Shown here: one piece after another, positions 50,575 through 63,686 of the stretch
Position numbering within the stretch: position 1 is the first letter of the stretch
How the letters are laid out: every line of letters starts with the position of its first letter
Virus record (IMG/VR): IMGVR_UViG_3300025073_000989
Strand: one strand, 5' to 3'
Source of the DNA: a virus
Lineage: Duplodnaviria; Caudoviricetes
Length of the DNA: 64,000 nt
Made by a program: the position numbers and the translations under genes
The notes under the pieces: model-generated
The model's database searches: none
What the model saw: only the letters and a program-made list of their open reading frames with translations
Told to the model about the DNA's origin: nothing

Positions 50575-53500
50575 TTATTTCTTTTTACTTAAAATAGCCA
50601 TACTTAATCCCTTCTTAGTGGAACTATGACTAGCGCCTGTTTTATCTAAAACTGTCCAGGAACTTCCTGGGTGATGTGACCTAACCATACCACTAACATT
50701 ATGAAGTACAGGATCAGTATCCCCCTCTATCTCCTTTTCTACTAAACGTATACCGTATCCAGCCAAAATCAAAGCAGAATATAAGTCCTTGTTTTGTCCT
50801 TTTTTAGGAGTATCAAAATGCATAGCCCCACCAGAAGTTGGTGTAACTATAATATTAAGCATTTGTTTTTTTAAATCTTCTACAGTCTCATATCTAATAG
50901 CCTCCATATCTATAGTAGATACTGGGGGTTGTGGGAACAATAATTTCTTATCCTCCAACAAAGACAATGTAGCAAAATTAGCATCGGTTATCCAGGATGT
51001 ATTAAAATTAACCATCTCAAGAATATGTCTACCCTGCATATTTCTATGTTCATCGTTAGTTCTGTCTATAATAGGTGTCTTTCCACCATAACCTTCTTCC
51101 AATAAATCCATTACAGCCTTTCCGCCGCCGCCTTTATCCATAAACAACCTTATAACTCTATAGTTATCACAAACATCCTGGATGGCGGATGTTAGTTCTT
51201 GGGTAGTATGTTTTTTAAGTTCAATTACATTTACTATTCTATTGACAGTTCCTATTTTAACTATAACTACACCACAACTGGCACTACCTGCTTGGTTTGG
51301 GTCAACTCCAACAATGTATTGACCTTCCCTATCACCCGCCAGCTCTATATAAAAATTGGAACCCAAAGTACATGATTCTAACAAAGATGCTTTGAAAAAA
51401 CCATCAGAATCTGAAACCATAGCAGCCTCGTATTCCATACGAAACTCATGATTAGACATAACTCTTTTAGCTTCTTCAATATTATTTTTATCTAAAAACC
51501 CTTCTGGCAATAATGTATATGGTATTTGGTGAACAACAAAAGGACACTTAGAACTCAATAGATCACATTCTTCCATCTTTTTCCAATAAGCTCGCATCCT
51601 ATTATACATATGATTGAACTTATAATATCCTGAAGAGGTCATTATCATTTTATTCACCAATTCATCTTCAAAATCACTATCAATTGCTAAGCCTGCCTCA
51701 AGCAAAAGTTTTTTTCTTTCTAAAGCACGTACTTGTTCCATAGGATCCTGTTTGGTGGCACCCATAGGGCGTAAAACCATATCAACTATTTTGTTGGGAA
51801 CCTGTGCTAGTTCATCTACACATACCAAGTAAAAACGAGAACCACGTATTTTTGAACCATCATTACCTATTGGTAGTGCCTCTATAAAAGAGCCATTTTT
51901 ACCACCAACAGCTTTAAATTTTAAATTATGCGTATCTGCTCCGTGTGTAGGAGGACCAACACACGCTTCTCTAAATATAGATGATTTTGAGTATAGTTTT
52001 TCAATCTCACTAAACATCATTTTTGCTTGTCTAAAAGACGGGGCTATTAACCCAACTCTGTAACCTGGGTATAATAAACAACTTAGAGCAGATAACAAAC
52101 CTTGTAAATATGTATTGTGGTTTATAAAACCATTTGCAAAGTAATTAGGCTCTATGCTACATACCTCATCCATCTCAAAATCATAACAATCACCCTTCCA
52201 ATCATCTACATACACTACTGTATCAAAAAAATAGTTAGTTTTTAGAATATCTAAAAGTAGATTAAACTTGTCAATAAAATAACTATTTATTGTATAAGTA
52301 CTTGAAGATATAATTTTTATAATATCATGAATAAAGATACTAAGTGTAGAATAAGTTACTTCTTTTTTATTGCTTTTTTTAAATAATAAAAATTTTCCTG
52401 GAAAATTGTTACAATTCTTATTATTAAGTAATAGTAATATCTGTCTTAAATCCCAACAAATATCTTTTATATAAGGAATAGTATCTTTATTAACATTTAA
52501 CTTCTTAGACTCAAAATATTCATTTAGTATTTTTTGTTTTCTAGTTAACCTAAAACCAATTAACTCTTTAAACTTGAAAGCGTCTTCTGAAAACATATCA
52601 AGTAAGTAAGCTTTTCCAAAATTAGATTTGGTTTTTTTCTTCCTTAATCTGGCCACTATTCCAAAATTAAGAAGCATCAATTGTATCTCTATTAAAAGTT
52701 TTTTAGACACAGAACAACATGACACTCCGCCAGACCTTTTATCAACAGTACCATCAGTATCAAAATATCCCTGTAAAAAAGCTACTTGTGATTGTCTAGT
52801 AGAAGTTCTAATTGAATATGGTACTGATTTATTATAAGATAAAACCCTAGCTATACCGTACTTATCAAAAAACCATGAAAAATTATTATTACTAAAACCT
52901 ATTCTTAGAGTACAATCACCACTTTCGTACGATACACTGTATGGTATATTATTACGTATACAGTATTGAGAGGAAAAGGATAATATTTGTTCATCCTCAG
53001 ATGTCAAAGAAAAACTGTTTTTGTTTATACAACCGTCTCCTATCAATAAACCTATTAAATAAGCGTCATCTAAAGAAACTAAAGTATAACCAAAAGAGTT
53101 GTTCCCCCTCTGTAAGCACACTTTATCGCCTGGAATAAAATCTTCTAGTTTTTTATATATAAATTCACCATCTTTATTTAAAGTAAGTAGTGGATGGTGA
53201 TTACTGCCTTTACTAATAAATCCATTATTAGTTTTTAGTTGCTTACCTTCTATACCCTTTTCTAGACACAATCTTTTTGTACCCTTAAACCCATTTGAAG
53301 TATGTATATTAATATTCCAATCTATAACTTCTTCTTCACCGTCACGTAAATATGATGGTATAGGCGGTAAAATTTCATTTAAATAAACCAACCCTTTGTT
53401 TTTTTCATTAATAATACTTGATGTACAAACGCTTTTACCGAAACCTCTACCACATACAGCAATAACATAATCCTTAAACCACATGTCCTCAAAAACTACT

Positions 53501-53631
53501 CTTTGTATTGGAGCTAAATCTACTCCTAATAGATCGTACACTGCCACGCATGGATTCTGTCTATAAAAAGCTATTAACTGAGCACCTTGGCCCATAATAA
53601 CATCTATTTTTTTATCTCTATCAATAATCAT
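50575..53631 (-). CDS. terL: Terminase large subunit with an intein (1018 aa precursor, ~578 aa mature)
   Basis: Walker A CGRGFGK|T split by the intein; LIAPSFRQAK; IRGSRF..VCVDELAQ Walker B; nuclease YIVGVDP and KDLYSAL. Confidence 0.92.
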   Translation of the reverse strand: MIIDRDKKIDVIMGQGAQLIAFYRQNPCVAVYDLLGVDLAPIQRVVFEDMWFKDYVIAVCGRGFGKSVCTSSIINEKNKGLVYLNEILPPIPSYLRDGEEEVIDWNINIHTSNGFKGTKRLCLEKGIEGKQLKTNNGFISKGSNHHPLLTLNKDGEFIYKKLEDFIPGDKVCLQRGNNSFGYTLVSLDDAYLIGLLIGDGCINKNSFSLTSEDEQILSFSSQYCIRNNIPYSVSYESGDCTLRIGFSNNNFSWFFDKYGIARVLSYNKSVPYSIRTSTRQSQVAFLQGYFDTDGTVDKRSGGVSCCSVSKKLLIEIQLMLLNFGIVARLRKKKTKSNFGKAYLLDMFSEDAFKFKELIGFRLTRKQKILNEYFESKKLNVNKDTIPYIKDICWDLRQILLLLNNKNCNNFPGKFLLFKKSNKKEVTYSTLSIFIHDIIKIISSSTYTINSYFIDKFNLLLDILKTNYFFDTVVYVDDWKGDCYDFEMDEVCSIEPNYFANGFINHNTYLQGLLSALSCLLYPGYRVGLIAPSFRQAKMMFSEIEKLYSKSSIFREACVGPPTHGADTHNLKFKAVGGKNGSFIEALPIGNDGSKIRGSRFYLVCVDELAQVPNKIVDMVLRPMGATKQDPMEQVRALERKKLLLEAGLAIDSDFEDELVNKMIMTSSGYYKFNHMYNRMRAYWKKMEECDLLSSKCPFVVHQIPYTLLPEGFLDKNNIEEAKRVMSNHEFRMEYEAAMVSDSDGFFKASLLESCTLGSNFYIELAGDREGQYIVGVDPNQAGSASCGVVIVKIGTVNRIVNVIELKKHTTQELTSAIQDVCDNYRVIRLFMDKGGGGKAVMDLLEEGYGGKTPIIDRTNDEHRNMQGRHILEMVNFNTSWITDANFATLSLLEDKKLLFPQPPVSTIDMEAIRYETVEDLKKQMLNIIVTPTSGGAMHFDTPKKGQNKDLYSALILAGYGIRLVEKEIEGDTDPVLHNVSGMVRSHHPGSSWTVLDKTGASHSSTKKGLSMAILSKKK
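52114..53433 (-). mobile_element. 440-aa intein with LAGLIDADG endonuclease
   Basis: Begins SVCTSSII after GRGFGK and ends FANGFINHN before Thr; YLIGLLIGDG and FLQGYFDTDG motifs. Confidence 0.92.
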
Positions 53632-57687: not shown

Positions 57688-57909
57688 TTACACTGACTGT
57701 ATTGATGTTGCTTGAATGCCTTTATCTGTTTCTTTTAATTCAAAAGTAACAGATTGACCTGTTTTCAACGTTTTATATCCTTCCATTTCTATACTGCTAA
57801 AATGTACAAAATATTCAGTATTAGTAGTATCTCCATCTACCGTTAAGAAGCCATACCCTCTTTCATTACTAAACCACTTTACTTTACCATTAATTCTTTT
57901 TGACATCAC
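57688..57909 (-). CDS. csp: Cold-shock domain protein, 73 aa
   Basis: GKVKWFSNERGYGF (RNP1), YFVHFSSI (RNP2), GYKTLKTGQSVTFE. Confidence 0.95.
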   Translation of the reverse strand: MMSKRINGKVKWFSNERGYGFLTVDGDTTNTEYFVHFSSIEMEGYKTLKTGQSVTFELKETDKGIQATSIQSV

Positions 57910-58404: not shown

Positions 58405-59394
58405 TTATAGCTGAGAGGCTAAAAGTGCCCCATTAGCCACGCAGGTCATAGGTGATTCAGCTCTTCTAACTTCACTTATACGCATTGGTAATTTTATACT
58501 ATTTACTTTATCTTTGAACATATCTGTAAATCCGGTAGCCAAAGTCAAACCTCCAGACACCACAATAGGTACTGCCTCTCTAAATACTGGTAATTCTTTT
58601 TCCCTTCTATTAAGTTCATACATTATATTTTGCAAAGCATAATTCATAACAGAACCATAATAAACAGCCACAGCTTCCATTATTTTATTAGATGGGTTAT
58701 ATAAATCCACCCCTGCTTCTTTTTCTAGTTGTATCAAAGAAGGTGATAAATCCAAAGCAGTAGCAACCGCTTGATCTATAAAATCACCAGATCTTGTTAT
58801 GCTGAATTCTACTAAGGGGTCCCCTTGATGTATCACCGCTATATTTATCATACCAGCACCAAAAGACATAGTAATTCCAGTTAAAGCATCATCTATTAAC
58901 TCACTTAGTGCTATAGCAAAAGCCTCATTTATTGGGTGACTATTATATCCCTGCTCTTTAAAAAATTTATTAAGAAGTTCGGTATGATATACAATATCGA
59001 AATTACCATCTACTGGCCTAGCTGGCACTGAATAGACTAAAGTTTCATCTCCATTACCTTTACCTATAAGGTTGCTTATAAGTAGCTTTAACATAGGTAA
59101 ACTATTCTTTTCTTTTGGAGATACTACTCCCTTACTCATAGGTCTTTTTGCTATATCATTTCTCTCTATTGCTATTTGTAGAGCATCCTCACCAACCACA
59201 ATATAAGAATCCCCATCCACTATAAAACTAGAACCTCTCTTCTCAAGAGAGGTTTTTATAGCCGAACTATTAACATCACTTTTAGGAACTATTTTATAAA
59301 AAGCATCTCTCTCCATTTTAAAAGAAGTAGTACCATCATCATTTAAAAAACCGCACACTAATAAGTTTGTACCAACATCTAAACCCTTTCCCAT
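58405..59394 (-). CDS. Actin-family ATPase (MreB/MamK/ParM-like), 329 aa
   Basis: Phosphate-1 GLDVGT, connect-1 INEAFA, phosphate-2 SFGAGMIN, adenosine VVSGG, connect-2 VANGAL. Confidence 0.85.
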   Translation of the reverse strand: MGKGLDVGTNLLVCGFLNDDGTTSFKMERDAFYKIVPKSDVNSSAIKTSLEKRGSSFIVDGDSYIVVGEDALQIAIERNDIAKRPMSKGVVSPKEKNSLPMLKLLISNLIGKGNGDETLVYSVPARPVDGNFDIVYHTELLNKFFKEQGYNSHPINEAFAIALSELIDDALTGITMSFGAGMINIAVIHQGDPLVEFSITRSGDFIDQAVATALDLSPSLIQLEKEAGVDLYNPSNKIMEAVAVYYGSVMNYALQNIMYELNRREKELPVFREAVPIVVSGGLTLATGFTDMFKDKVNSIKLPMRISEVRRAESPMTCVANGALLASQL

Positions 59395-59411
59395 CTTTTA
59401 TTCTCCTATAC

Positions 59412-60161
59412 CTATCTAGGTAAACTGCCTATAAGCGATTTAAGTTTGTTTACTTTATCGTTCAAATGATCTTTTTTAATATCTTCTTTTACTTCAATGT
59501 GCGAAACCATTGACTCTTCGTTACCTTTATCTACTGGATCTATAAAAACTGTCTCCATTACAGGCCTATCAGAAACATTAATTGAGTTAACTACATCGTC
59601 TGTTTTACTTTTAATAAAACATATAGTATCTTCTTGTAATTTTATCATATTATCTCTAGAAAGTAATTCTTTTGTTAAGGACTCTACTTTATGTTCTAAT
59701 ACTAAATTTTCTTTTTCTAAACCTATAATTTGATTTTCTAGTTTTTTTATTACACTATCTTGTCTTTCTGATCTTTCATTATTAAATTTTATAGTATTTT
59801 CTTGATCTTGTAAAGTTATTTTTAGTTTATCATTATCAGAAATATACTTTAGTATTTTTTCTTCTAGCTGATTAAACTCTTTACTATATTTTTGCTCTAC
59901 TTCATTAACTGCTATAGTAATATGCTTATTTAGTTCTATATCAAAATCTTCAGCTGTAAAATTACCGTTAGACTCTACTACTGACTGCTTAGTTATACTA
60001 GTAGTTAGTTTATCTATTTGATCTTTAAGGTTGTTCAATAAAACATCACTTGATTCATGATAAACAACATCTGGGTTTAGATGTTTTTGTAAATCCCTAG
60101 GACCTCTTCTTCCTAATAATCTATGGCCCTTTTTGCCTACGTCTTTATTATAATCCATCAC
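59412..60161 (-). CDS. Coiled-coil protein, 249 aa
   Basis: Central heptad-rich region; coupled to clpP by overlapping stop/start. Confidence 0.75.
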   Translation of the reverse strand: MMDYNKDVGKKGHRLLGRRGPRDLQKHLNPDVVYHESSDVLLNNLKDQIDKLTTSITKQSVVESNGNFTAEDFDIELNKHITIAVNEVEQKYSKEFNQLEEKILKYISDNDKLKITLQDQENTIKFNNERSERQDSVIKKLENQIIGLEKENLVLEHKVESLTKELLSRDNMIKLQEDTICFIKSKTDDVVNSINVSDRPVMETVFIDPVDKGNEESMVSHIEVKEDIKKDHLNDKVNKLKSLIGSLPR

Positions 60162-60754
60162 TTGTTTACTATTCTTTTATATTCTACTTTGTCGATAAGG
60201 CCATACTCTTTTGCTTCTTCTGAAGTAAGCCAGTGATCTTTTTCCATATCTTTTTTAATTTTAGCAATCTTTTGTCCGGTAATAATTGAATAATGTCTAG
60301 CCATTTTGTCATAAAGCTTTTCCATCTTTTTGTAACTGTTTACCACTTCATTGAACTTACCGCTAGCGCCAGTAGACATCTCATGTATCATAATTTCAGT
60401 ATTAGGTAGAGCATATCTTTTACCTTTGGCTCCAGCAGCCAAAATAAATGAACCAGCGCTGCATACAGAACCATACCCAATAGTAACTACATCAGGCTTA
60501 ATATATTGCATAGTATCATATACAGCATACATAGCTGATACATTTCCTCCCGGACTATTGATATACATAAAAATGTCTTTTTCAGAATCATCTGACTCTA
60601 AAAACAACAACTGGCCAACAATAGCGTCAGCCATTTCTGGTACAAACTCCCCTGTTACAAAGATAATTCTATCTTTTAGCATTCTAGAGTATAAATCGTA
60701 AGCCCGTTCTCCGTCCTTGTCGTTTTTTTCAATCACATATGGAATTCTAGACAT
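60158..60754 (-). CDS. clpP: ATP-dependent Clp protease proteolytic subunit, 198 aa
   Basis: AYDLYSRMLKDRIIF, YINSPGG, catalytic Ser (CSAG), His (IMIHE) and Asp (KDHW). Confidence 0.95.
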   Translation of the reverse strand: MSRIPYVIEKNDKDGERAYDLYSRMLKDRIIFVTGEFVPEMADAIVGQLLFLESDDSEKDIFMYINSPGGNVSAMYAVYDTMQYIKPDVVTIGYGSVCSAGSFILAAGAKGKRYALPNTEIMIHEMSTGASGKFNEVVNSYKKMEKLYDKMARHYSIITGQKIAKIKKDMEKDHWLTSEEAKEYGLIDKVEYKRIVNK

Positions 60755-60821
60755 AGTAATTAATTCTCCTTAAATCTGTTAAATTAGTAAAACATTAAAA
60801 ATCAACCATTACAATAATAAT

Positions 60822-60850
60822 ATTATAATTACTATGTGTACATATGTCAA
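60822..60850 (-). promoter_or_regulatory. Consensus sigma70 promoter upstream of clpP
   Basis: TTGACA (60850-60845), 17 bp spacer, TATAAT (60827-60822). Confidence 0.85.
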
Positions 60851-61019: not shown

Positions 61020-61065
61020 GACATTTTTGTCACCTATATATAGTGACATTTTTGTCACCTATATA
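61020..61065. repeat. Two 21-bp direct repeats, each with a GTGACA-N4-TGTCAC-type palindrome
   Basis: GACATTTTTGTCACCTATATA at 61020-61040 and 61045-61065. Confidence 0.9.
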
Positions 61066-62477: not shown

Positions 62478-63686
62478 TTAACTGTCCAATACTTTCCTTA
62501 CCTTTTTAAGAAGTACCTCTATAGTATAGGGTTTGGTGATTATATCATCAACACCTAGATCTAATAATTCCTGCCTTTGTTTATCATCTAAACTATATCC
62601 AGTTGTTATTATTGTTTTGTGTTTTTTATTTATTTTTTTTATGTTTTTTATGTATTGCTTACCACTAGTTCCTGGCATAACTAGATCTATTATTGATAAA
62701 TGTATATTGTTTAAATTATCTAAATAATAATCAAAGGCCTTGTTTGTGTTATCAAAATTAATAGTAGAGTATCCAAAAACATTTAGCACATTTGAGCAGG
62801 TTTTAGATACGAAACAGTTATCGTCTAGTATCAGTATTGTTTCTTTTCCTATCTTTATCGATTCTTCTATGTCTATTTCGTTTATATTTTCTACTATACT
62901 ACTTAATAAAGGTATGTATATAGTAATAGTAGTATTTGGTTTATTTTTTACATCTATTATTCCTTTATAGTTTTTTACTATCTTGCTGACTGTATATAAA
63001 CCTAAGCCTACTGCTAATAATGAGCCTTTACTTTTTTTACTTTTAGTACTAAAAAACGGATCAAAAATATGATTGATAATGGTGTCTGAAATACCAATAC
63101 CATTATCTGACACAGATAATTCTAAATATTTTCCAGGATATATATTTTTGTGTTCTATACAAAAAGCACTATCTAGATAAATACTTTTTATTTCTATAAC
63201 TATTTTACCACTACTTGCTATAGCCTCTACTGAGTTTAGTACAAGATTTATTAGTATTTGTTCTATATGTTTTGGGTCAATTAATGATAACTCTTCGATT
63301 TCTTGTATATCATACTCTATCTCTATTCTGTCTGGTATATTTCTATTTATTATTTTTTGTATTAATACTAACTCTTTATTTATATTACAAATTGTTGTAT
63401 TTTTGTTATTACTACTTTCATTAGTTGATAAAGCTAGAGCAGATAGTCTACTAGTAATATCACTACCTCTGATTACTGCTTCATATATAGCTTCTAGATA
63501 CTTGTAATTTTTGTAGTTTTCGTTTTCATTTAGTAATATTAATTCTATATTAAATCTAAGTGATTGTAGTATATCACTAAAATCATGTGCTACATCACTA
63601 GCTAGCGCTAGTACTACTTCTATTTTAGAAGCATACTGTTTTAACTCATCTTCACTAAGCTCTTTAAAATACTTAGTAGCATGCAT
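62478..63686 (-). CDS. Hybrid histidine kinase/response regulator without a sensor domain, 402 aa
   Basis: H-box LASDVAHDFSDIL, N-box EQILINLVLNS, G1 DNGIG, F-box IFDPFFSTK, G2 GLGL; receiver ILDD, IIDLVMPG, TTG, TKP. Confidence 0.92.
   Translation of the reverse strand: MHATKYFKELSEDELKQYASKIEVVLALASDVAHDFSDILQSLRFNIELILLNENENYKNYKYLEAIYEAVIRGSDITSRLSALALSTNESSNNKNTTICNINKELVLIQKIINRNIPDRIEIEYDIQEIEELSLIDPKHIEQILINLVLNSVEAIASSGKIVIEIKSIYLDSAFCIEHKNIYPGKYLELSVSDNGIGISDTIINHIFDPFFSTKSKKSKGSLLAVGLGLYTVSKIVKNYKGIIDVKNKPNTTITIYIPLLSSIVENINEIDIEESIKIGKETILILDDNCFVSKTCSNVLNVFGYSTINFDNTNKAFDYYLDNLNNIHLSIIDLVMPGTSGKQYIKNIKKINKKHKTIITTGYSLDDKQRQELLDLGVDDIITKPYTIEVLLKKVRKVLDS

What the first reader, a model, noticed from the sequence alone, without database searches (positions are those of the whole stretch)
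58405..60850. Sigma70-driven clpP, coiled-coil protein and actin-like ATPase module
Seen: a perfect TTGACA-17-TATAAT promoter precedes a host-type ClpP with intact triad, an overlapping 249-aa coiled-coil gene, and an actin-fold ATPase whose phosphate-2 motif reads SFGAG rather than DxGxG. The prohead protease is a separate gene, so ClpP is probably not for capsid maturation. Known: phage cytoskeletal proteins exist (PhuZ/TubZ tubulins, AlpC actin). Inference: a filament with an adaptor and proteolytic control that positions phage DNA or remodels the host.
Basis: partly seen in the sequence, partly recalled or inferred. Interest (0 to 1): 0.62.

Follow-up and report, generated by a model that had tools for sequence, protein, structure and literature searches.

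The report
Phage actin filament, adaptor and ClpP
An uncultured giant phage carries, behind a textbook bacterial promoter, a cell-type ClpP protease, a rod-shaped adaptor and an actin of the archaeal "volactin" family; the adaptor and actin genes sit side by side in many phages I sampled, so these phages probably build their own actin skeleton, while the protease is a neighbour in one lineage only.

Summary
A unique 12/12 TTGACA-17-TATAAT promoter (60850-60822, minus strand) precedes a cell-type ClpP (triad S99/H124/D173), an overlapping 248/249-aa coiled-coil protein and a 329-aa actin-fold protein.

The actin is not MreB, MamK, ParM or salactin. It is a member of Pfam Volactin (PF25216, 209.6 bits against a cut-off of 35). 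The odd SFGAG phosphate-2 motif is the family's hallmark (Ser in 133 of 139 representatives, never Asp), not a defect.

At least 513 IMG/VR phage contigs encode a relative. In 70 of 78 sampled loci the gene just upstream ends in the same short C-terminal helix motif (K-[LV]-x-x-[LF]-[KRLM]), against 14 of 1034 control ORFs. Its N-terminal part differs: a hydrophobic membrane-anchor-like segment in most clades, a coiled-coil rod in the window's clade. So adaptor plus actin is a conserved two-gene module.

ClpP is linked only in the window's monophyletic clade. Four other actin-bearing jumbo phages have ClpP-family genes 19-107 kb away, so "proteolytic control" is unsupported. I found no separate prohead protease.

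This scan met the same operon before on related phage DNA. I found no paper on it.

Verdict: a new variant of the actin-plus-adaptor kind (ParMRC, AlpAC). Binding and polymerisation are inferred, not shown.

The parts
60822..60850 (-). sigma-70-type promoter, TTGACA-17-TATAAT
   Evidence: Only 12/12 match in the window. Similar sites at the same place in 11 of 18 relatives. No transcript data.
60158..60754 (-). clpP, 198 aa, cell-type ClpP peptidase
   Evidence: PF00574 231.9 bits. NF001368 249.6 bits against a cut-off of 249. The head-maturation model NF045542 scores only 85.9 against 120. Full-length match to S. aureus ClpP 4emp, 3.8e-64. Triad S99/H124/D173. AAGGAG 8 nt before the ATG.
59412..60161 (-). 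adaptor gene (248/249 aa): disordered conserved N-terminal peptide, about 124-residue single helix, DRP..FIDP linker, C-terminal amphipathic helix KVNKLKSLIGSLPR
   Evidence: No family in Pfam, PHROGs, NCBIfam or PADLOC. AF2 model: helices 21-62, 70-193 and 231-244. Alignment A4 of 18 orthologues: conserved termini, coiled coil of variable length. C-terminal motif shared with the upstream genes of other phage clades. Start overlaps the clpP stop.
58405..59394 (-). Volactin-family actin-fold ATPase, 329 aa
   Evidence: PF25216 1e-61, 209.6 bits. AF2 pLDDT 94.8, pTM 0.91. Best solved folds are the MamK filament (TM 0.72), MreB/Mbl, BeeR and actin. Invariant D6-G8-T9, E157, S177-x-G-A-G-M-x-N184, G281-G282.
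61020..61065 (.). pair of exact 21-nt repeats (spacing 25) upstream of the promoter; possible protein-binding site, link to the module unproven
   Evidence: relatives keep a pair of exact 16-24-nt repeats, spaced 23-25 nt, at the same place but with unrelated sequences.

Best explanation
The stretch starts an operon read from a host-type promoter, probably by host RNA polymerase.

Its last two genes are a phage cytoskeletal module. The 329-aa Volactin-family actin binds ATP and polymerises into filaments. The rod-shaped adaptor docks on the actin through its short C-terminal amphipathic helix, as ParR does on ParM and AlpA on AlpC. In this clade the adaptor presents a conserved basic N-terminal peptide at the far end of a coiled-coil rod about 18 nm long, to an unknown cargo. 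In most other phage clades the same C-terminal module hangs on an N-terminal hydrophobic segment, which would tie the filament to the membrane.

The likeliest use is to organise the infected cell: placing phage DNA, replication or assembly sites, or reshaping the cell.

The ClpP is a cell-type peptidase that must borrow a host Clp ATPase. It most likely serves host takeover or proteostasis independently of the filament.

Shown: gene content, family membership, fold, conserved adjacency and motif, clade-limited ClpP linkage.
Inferred: polymerisation, adaptor-actin binding, cargo, timing of expression.
For: Family and fold. The founder of the family, H. volcanii volactin, forms dynamic filaments anchored to the membrane by their tips (PMC10869688). 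It lies next to a CdpA-like membrane protein with a linker and a small C-terminal cytoplasmic domain (PMC12126565).

Spread: at least 513 IMG/VR contigs, up to 461 kb long. All phage actins form one group (SH-aLRT 95).

Partner gene: it lies directly upstream in nearly all loci. The motif K[LV]xx[LF][KRLM] falls in the last 22 residues in 70 of 78 upstream ORFs, against 14 of 1034 control ORFs. A clade-B tail HMM ranks clade-A adaptors at 6 of the top 10 among 1983 ORFs. hhalign aligns only the two tails, E 0.057.

Some relatives carry long coiled coils fused to the actin's N-terminus (P0135, P0157, P0193).

Inteins sit exactly at the phosphate-2 motif in relatives (P0122), a sign of a conserved, important site.

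ClpP. No Clp ATPase (PF07724) in the 175 kb held.

Promoter.
Against: No experiment or complex prediction backs polymerisation or adaptor binding. The C-terminal motif is short, and each single statistical test is marginal (window adaptor E 0.87; hhalign E 0.057). The phosphate-2 Asp of other actins is Ser here, so ATP hydrolysis may differ. The cargo of the N-terminal peptide is unknown. The record is only 66% complete.
Confidence: 0.6

Rival explanations
1. The three proteins work as one machine. The adaptor's clade-specific N-terminal peptide or its L-x-G-x-L-P tail binds the phage ClpP, so that proteolysis is tethered to, or controls, the actin filament.
For: clpP and the adaptor gene overlap (TGATG/GTGA). 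They lie within about 20 nt of each other in 15 of 17 relatives. The coiled-coil type of adaptor and ClpP adjacency co-occur in all 20 loci of one clade.
Against: That clade is collinear over 10 kb, so adjacency carries little weight. About 58 loci of other clades have no ClpP within 5 kb. Four such genomes have ClpP-family genes 19-107 kb away. No [LIV]-G-[FL] ClpP-docking tripeptide is present.
Confidence: 0.15
2. A ParMRC- or AlpAC-like DNA-segregation system. The filament moves or partitions phage DNA, and the paired repeats upstream act as a centromere-like site bound by the adaptor or by the neighbouring HTH protein.
For: Repeat pairs are conserved in position, with sequence turnover, next to the operon. 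One adaptor (P0279) has a weak HTH-like stretch (E 0.018). Relatives of unknown origin carry a ParB-HTH-like N-terminus (P0165, E 3.5e-4, below cut-off). AlpAC is a precedent (PMC4446434, PMC5539076).
Against: Most phage adaptors start with a hydrophobic membrane-type segment, not a DNA-binding domain. The window's adaptor has no recognisable DNA-binding fold. The repeats directly follow the HTH gene and may be its own operator or an origin. No integrase or plasmid genes were seen.
Confidence: 0.15
3. A proteostasis operon without any filament. The actin-fold protein acts as a non-polymerising, Hsp70-NBD-like ATPase, the coiled-coil protein as a GrpE-like cofactor, and ClpP as the protease. 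Alternatively, ClpP is simply the capsid maturation protease.
For: No separate prohead protease was found. PHROGs labels the ClpP hits 'head maturation protease'. GrpE is also a coiled-coil partner of an actin-fold ATPase (textbook knowledge).
Against: The top 49 solved folds are all polymerising actins or FtsA, with no Hsp70. There is no substrate-binding domain. The adaptor lacks a GrpE beta-domain. ClpP scores 249.6 bits on the cellular subfamily model against 85.9 (below the cut-off of 120) on the head-maturation model. It lies about 11 kb from the portal gene and about 16 kb from the capsid gene, behind a host-type promoter.
Confidence: 0.08

Closest known systems
Volactin (VolA, HVO_2015) of Haloferax volcanii, Pfam PF25216, with its neighbour the CdpA-like membrane protein HVO_2016
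   Same: Same Pfam family (209.6 bits). The neighbouring partner is built as anchor, linker and small C-terminal part, as in most phage clades (PMC12126565). Volactin filaments touch the membrane by their tips (PMC10869688).
   Different: Bacterial-virus gene of about 32% G+C rather than an archaeal chromosomal gene. In the window's clade the partner has a coiled-coil rod in place of membrane segments. Homology of the phage adaptors to HVO_2016 was not tested, because I could not obtain the archaeal sequences. The role in the phage is unknown.
AlpC/AlpA of Corynebacterium prophage CGP3, and ParM/ParR, Alp7A/Alp7R, AlfA/AlfB
   Same: An actin-like filament encoded next to a small adaptor on a mobile element. 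AlpAC is needed for efficient viral DNA replication and transport (PMC4446434, PMC5539076). The proposed docking by the adaptor's C-terminal helix would resemble ParR on ParM (my own knowledge).
   Different: A different actin family: no ParM/StbA-type hit, only Volactin passes its cut-off. The adaptor gene lies upstream and has no recognisable DNA-binding domain. Most phage versions look membrane-anchored.
MamK, MreB/Mbl and BeeR filaments
   Same: Nearest solved folds: MamK 5ljv TM 0.72, MreB 0.6-0.7, BeeR 8r2n 0.69.
   Different: 13-20% identity. The NCBIfam MreB, MamK and salactin models score 22-29 bits against cut-offs of 293-400. Phosphate 2 is S-x-G-A-G-M-x-N instead of D-x-G-G-G-T.
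PhuZ tubulin spindle of nucleus-forming jumbo phages
   Same: A jumbo-phage-encoded cytoskeletal polymer that organises the infected cell (PMC8314001 and PMC7950403, listed).
   Different: Tubulin fold against actin fold. No tubulin gene in the 175 kb held. No evidence of a phage nucleus here.
ClpP of jumbo phages (Iyer et al. 2021, PMC7824862)
   Same: That paper calls ClpP the most prominent patchily distributed peptidase of jumbo phages and reads it as host-directed. Here too it is cell-type and lineage-specific in position.
   Different: Here it heads the operon that holds the actin module.

Membership tests
Volactin family (Pfam PF25216) | Score above the curated gathering cut-off over the full model | tested here: met
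   209.6 bits against 35, model positions 1-320 of 321. Only 1 of 14 control genomes passes the cut-off; H. volcanii is among the four that ring.
Volactin family (Pfam PF25216) | Family motifs: D-x-G-T phosphate 1, S-x-G-[AG]-G-M-x-N phosphate 2, G-G adenosine motif | tested here: met
   Invariant in 36 of 36 aligned members. Ser in 133 and Asn in 6 of 139 representatives, none with Asp. Not checked on HVO_2015 itself.
Volactin family (Pfam PF25216) | Actin fold | tested here: met
   AF2 pLDDT 94.8, pTM 0.91. Foldseek probability 1.00 to MamK, MreB, BeeR and actin.
Volactin family (Pfam PF25216) | Dynamic polymerisation in vivo | not testable with these tools
   Shown only for H. volcanii volactin (PMC10869688).
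MreB / MamK / salactin | Score above the NCBIfam cut-offs | tested here: not met
   MreB NF010539 24.2 against 293 and TIGR00904 22.2 against 365.75; MamK 23.8 against 400; salactin 29 against 400. Pfam MreB_Mbl 28.5 against 27, a partial match to residues 64-211 only.
ParMRC/AlpAC-type actin-plus-adaptor system | Adaptor gene adjacent to the actin gene and conserved with it | tested here: met
   An upstream ORF with the shared C-terminal motif in 70 of 78 loci, against 14 of 1034 controls.
ParMRC/AlpAC-type actin-plus-adaptor system | Adaptor binds the actin filament | not testable with these tools
ParMRC/AlpAC-type actin-plus-adaptor system | Adaptor binds centromere-like DNA repeats | tested here: inconclusive
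   No DNA-binding domain in the adaptor. Paired repeats exist upstream, but their binding protein is unknown.
ClpP (peptidase S14) | Family score, Ser-His-Asp triad, full length with the N-terminal gating region | tested here: met
   PF00574 231.9 against 20.2. NF001368 249.6 against 249. Triad S99/H124/D173. Residues 1-190 align with S. aureus ClpP residues 1-189. The TIGR00493 equivalog cut-off is not reached (237.5 against 308.6).
ClpP (peptidase S14) | Partner Clp ATPase | tested here: not met
   No PF07724 (AAA_2) match in the 175 kb held, which is 66% of the genome. A host ATPase is assumed.
ClpP-related head maturation protease (NF045542) | Score above the cut-off; position in the head module | tested here: not met
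   85.9 bits against 120. The gene lies about 11 kb from the portal gene and about 16 kb from the capsid gene.

The most novel reading that the evidence does not exclude
The adaptor is a two-ended tether. Its C-terminal helix holds the phage's actin filament, and its clade-specific N-terminal peptide (or its L-x-G-x-L-P tail) recruits the co-translated phage ClpP. Proteolysis would then be placed on a virus-built cytoskeleton, a spatially organised protease not known in any phage or bacterium.
Probability: 0.12. Interest if true: 0.85.

Novelty: new variant of a known kind. Interest (0 to 1): 0.62.

Why it matters
Phage cytoskeletons are known mainly from the PhuZ tubulin of nucleus-forming phages and from one prophage actin, AlpC. 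Here an actin family known only from haloarchaeal cell-shape work turns out to be common in uncultured large phages (at least 513 IMG/VR contigs). It comes with a modular adaptor whose cargo end has been swapped between membrane-anchor and coiled-coil forms.

If the proteins polymerise and bind as proposed, the family becomes a tractable two-protein system. It would also suggest a binding logic for the unknown volactin partners in archaea, and show that actin-based organisation of infected cells is widespread among large phages. I found no paper describing it. The viral structure library holds no close relative.

Tried and rejected
Nothing was folded and I used no work-around.
- The search for related loci with the 36-sequence alignment: no usable conserved stretch. 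It worked with a 10-sequence alignment.
- BLAST of the adaptor against the N-terminal extensions of fused relatives: nothing.
- Pfam, PHROGs, NCBIfam, PADLOC and the ESM Atlas for the adaptor: only generic coiled-coil noise.
- P0128, an apparent adaptor-actin fusion: rejected as a mis-called start, because the true upstream adaptor (P0279) overlaps it.
- Prohead protease: Peptidase_S77 and S78 are absent, and the ORFs between portal and capsid genes are unannotated.
- Named phages: only two uncultured 'huge phage' records carry a relative, at about 31% identity.
- The genome-contig scan found 10 loci, all in metagenome bins and 9 of them on contigs of 2-32 kb, so they look like mis-binned phage DNA. 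It gave no haloarchaeal sequence for a direct comparison with HVO_2015/2016.
- Terminator-like hairpins inside clpP and the actin gene: no more than chance gives.

Full report
WHAT IS THERE

The window is part of a 175-kb IMG/VR virus record, estimated 66% complete. The same adaptor protein also occurs on a 276-kb contig. The window holds terminase, portal, major capsid and tail genes, so this is a jumbo phage. Its G+C content is about 28-38%.

All genes of the finding lie on the minus strand, in this order:
- Promoter TTGACA-17-TATAAT, 60850-60822.
- clpP, 60158-60754.
- A 248/249-aa coiled-coil gene, 59412-60161.
- A 329-aa actin-fold gene, 58405-59394.
- A GH24 endolysin, a cold-shock protein and further genes, with no convincing terminator between them.

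The promoter is the only perfect match in the 64 kb; 0.05 are expected by chance. Eleven of 18 relatives have a >=10/12 site with an exact TTGACA at the same place. The stop of clpP overlaps the start of the next gene (AAGTGATGG). The actin gene has AGGAG 8 nt before its ATG.

THE ClpP

- It aligns over its whole length with S. aureus ClpP (phmmer 3.8e-64).
- It keeps S99/H124/D173 and the N-terminal gating segment.
- It passes the NCBIfam ClpP subfamily model (249.6 bits against 249). It reaches only 85.9 bits against the 120-bit cut-off of the ClpP-related head-maturation model.
- The 175 kb held contain no Clp ATPase, so a host unfoldase is presumably used.
- I could not confirm that a separate prohead protease exists. 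The capsid-protease reading is therefore weakened by score, position and promoter, not excluded.
- Iyer et al. describe ClpP as patchily distributed among jumbo phages and probably host-directed (PMC7824862).

THE ACTIN

- Pfam places it in Volactin (PF25216): 1e-61, 209.6 bits, full length. MreB_Mbl gives a partial match of 28.5 bits and Salactin 19.9 bits.
- The NCBIfam MreB, MamK and salactin models are missed by a factor of ten or more.
- The AF2 model is confident (pLDDT 94.8, pTM 0.91). Its nearest solved folds are all polymerising actins: the MamK filament (TM 0.72), MreB/Mbl, BeeR and eukaryotic actin.
S177-x-G-A-G-M-x-N184 is invariant in 36 aligned members. Among 150 representatives, 133 of the 139 with a recognisable motif have Ser, 6 have Asn and none has Asp.
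- Several relatives carry a LAGLIDADG intein exactly at this motif (P0122), as expected of a conserved, important site.
- The family founder, H. volcanii volactin, forms dynamic filaments that touch the membrane by their tips (PMC10869688).

HOW WIDE IT IS

- A search of 1.84 billion representatives gave 918 clusters at E<=0.001.
- IMG/VR holds at least 513 contigs with a relative, up to 461 kb long.
- In named phages only two 'huge phage' records match. The viral structure library has no close relative.
- In a tree of 127 sequences all phage copies form one group (SH-aLRT 95). Inside it the window's clade is monophyletic (SH-aLRT 98).

THE PARTNER GENE

In the window's clade the gene upstream of the actin is always a fast-evolving coiled-coil protein of 198-450 aa. 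It is 23-36% identical to the window's, while the actins are 57-75% identical. Two conserved ends frame a coiled coil of variable length:
- N-terminus: M-x-Y-x-K-E ... G-P-R-D-x-Q.
- C-terminus: D-R-P-x-M-E-x-x-F-I-D-P ... K-V-x-K-L-K-x-L-x-G-x-L-P.

The AF2 model shows a disordered N-terminus, a single helix of about 124 residues (70-193), a disordered linker and a terminal helix 231-244.

In the other phage clades the upstream gene is a protein of about 100 aa. It has an N-terminal hydrophobic segment and ends in ...I-D-D-x-K-F-V-T ... S-K-L-A-Q-L-K-K-x-K-G.

Evidence that the two kinds share their tail:
- The motif K[LV]xx[LF][KRLM] falls in the last 22 residues of 70 of 78 upstream ORFs, against 14 of 1034 other ORFs of the same loci.
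- An HMM of the clade-B tails ranks clade-A adaptors at 6 of the top 10 among 1983 ORFs.
- hhalign aligns only the two tails (E 0.057).

Each single test is marginal. Position, terminal location and enrichment together make a shared actin-docking tail the best reading.

Further hints point the same way. Homing endonuclease genes have been inserted between the two genes in some phages without breaking the pair. Some relatives have coiled coils fused directly to the actin. In H. volcanii, volactin lies next to a CdpA-like membrane protein with a linker and a small C-terminal domain (PMC12126565). That is the same layout as the clade-B adaptors, although homology was not tested.

ClpP LINKAGE

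Every locus of the window's clade with enough upstream DNA has clpP, the adaptor gene and the actin gene together. But the whole 10-kb block is collinear there, so adjacency carries little weight. None of about 58 loci from other clades has ClpP within 5 kb. Four such jumbo-phage records do have ClpP-family genes, but 19-107 kb from the actin. Linkage therefore arose once, and functional coupling is unproven.

MECHANISM

- Most likely (0.6): a filament-plus-adaptor module used to organise the infected cell, co-transcribed with an independent host-directed ClpP.
- ClpP tethered to or controlling the filament: 0.15.
- A ParMRC/AlpAC-like DNA-segregation system that uses the paired repeats at 61020-61065, whose position but not sequence is conserved in relatives: 0.15.
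- A non-filament proteostasis operon, or a capsid-protease role for ClpP: 0.08.

NOVELTY

This scan met the same operon before on related phage DNA; its follow-up reached a similar reading. New in this report:
- The shared adaptor tail across clades, with swapped N-terminal modules.
- The monophyly of the ClpP-linked clade.
- The unlinked ClpP genes in other actin-bearing phages.
- The family-wide Ser at phosphate 2.
- The inteins at that site.

I found no paper on volactin-type actins in phages.

Noticed in passing
window 61020-61065: Two exact 21-nt repeats, spaced 25 nt, with the palindromic core GTGACAAAAATGTCAC. They start 8 nt after the HTH gene and lie about 170 nt upstream of the clpP promoter. 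Relatives keep a pair of exact 16-24-nt repeats, spaced 23-25 nt, at the same place but with unrelated sequences. This looks like a fast co-evolving protein-binding site: an operator, an origin or a centromere.
   Followed up: partly
window 50575-53631: The large terminase (1018 aa) appears to be interrupted by an intein with a LAGLIDADG endonuclease. The PHROG matches are split, and precomputed Pfam hits are Intein_splicing and LAGLIDADG_3.
   Followed up: no
P0122 and other ~700-aa relatives: Relatives of the actin carry a LAGLIDADG intein inserted exactly at the phosphate-2 motif, after residue ~178.
   Followed up: partly
L010/L011 7357-7998; L029 4343-4984; L036 2152-2772: Homing-endonuclease-like genes (HNH/NUMOD3, a zinc-rich HNH type, a GIY-YIG-like type) are inserted between the adaptor and actin genes, or directly upstream of the actin, in some phages.
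   Followed up: no
L003 7536-8009 and L014 6851-7009, against window 57688-57909: The cold-shock gene is split by about 260 nt in close relatives, probably by an intron, but is intact in the window.
   Followed up: no
P0158, P0165, P0176, P0153: High-G+C relatives of the actin, of unknown origin, carry an N-terminal extension that looks like a ParB-type HTH (P0165 E 3.5e-4, below cut-off). This hints at one-polypeptide DNA-linked actins.
   Followed up: partly
window 2-22081 (minus strand): A single open reading frame of more than 7360 codons runs off the window. An earlier follow-up of this scan reads it as a tape-measure protein fused to an RNA polymerase.
   Followed up: no
window 62478-63686: A hybrid histidine kinase with a receiver domain and no sensor domain (HATPase_c plus Response_reg), in the same gene row upstream of the operon.
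   Followed up: no
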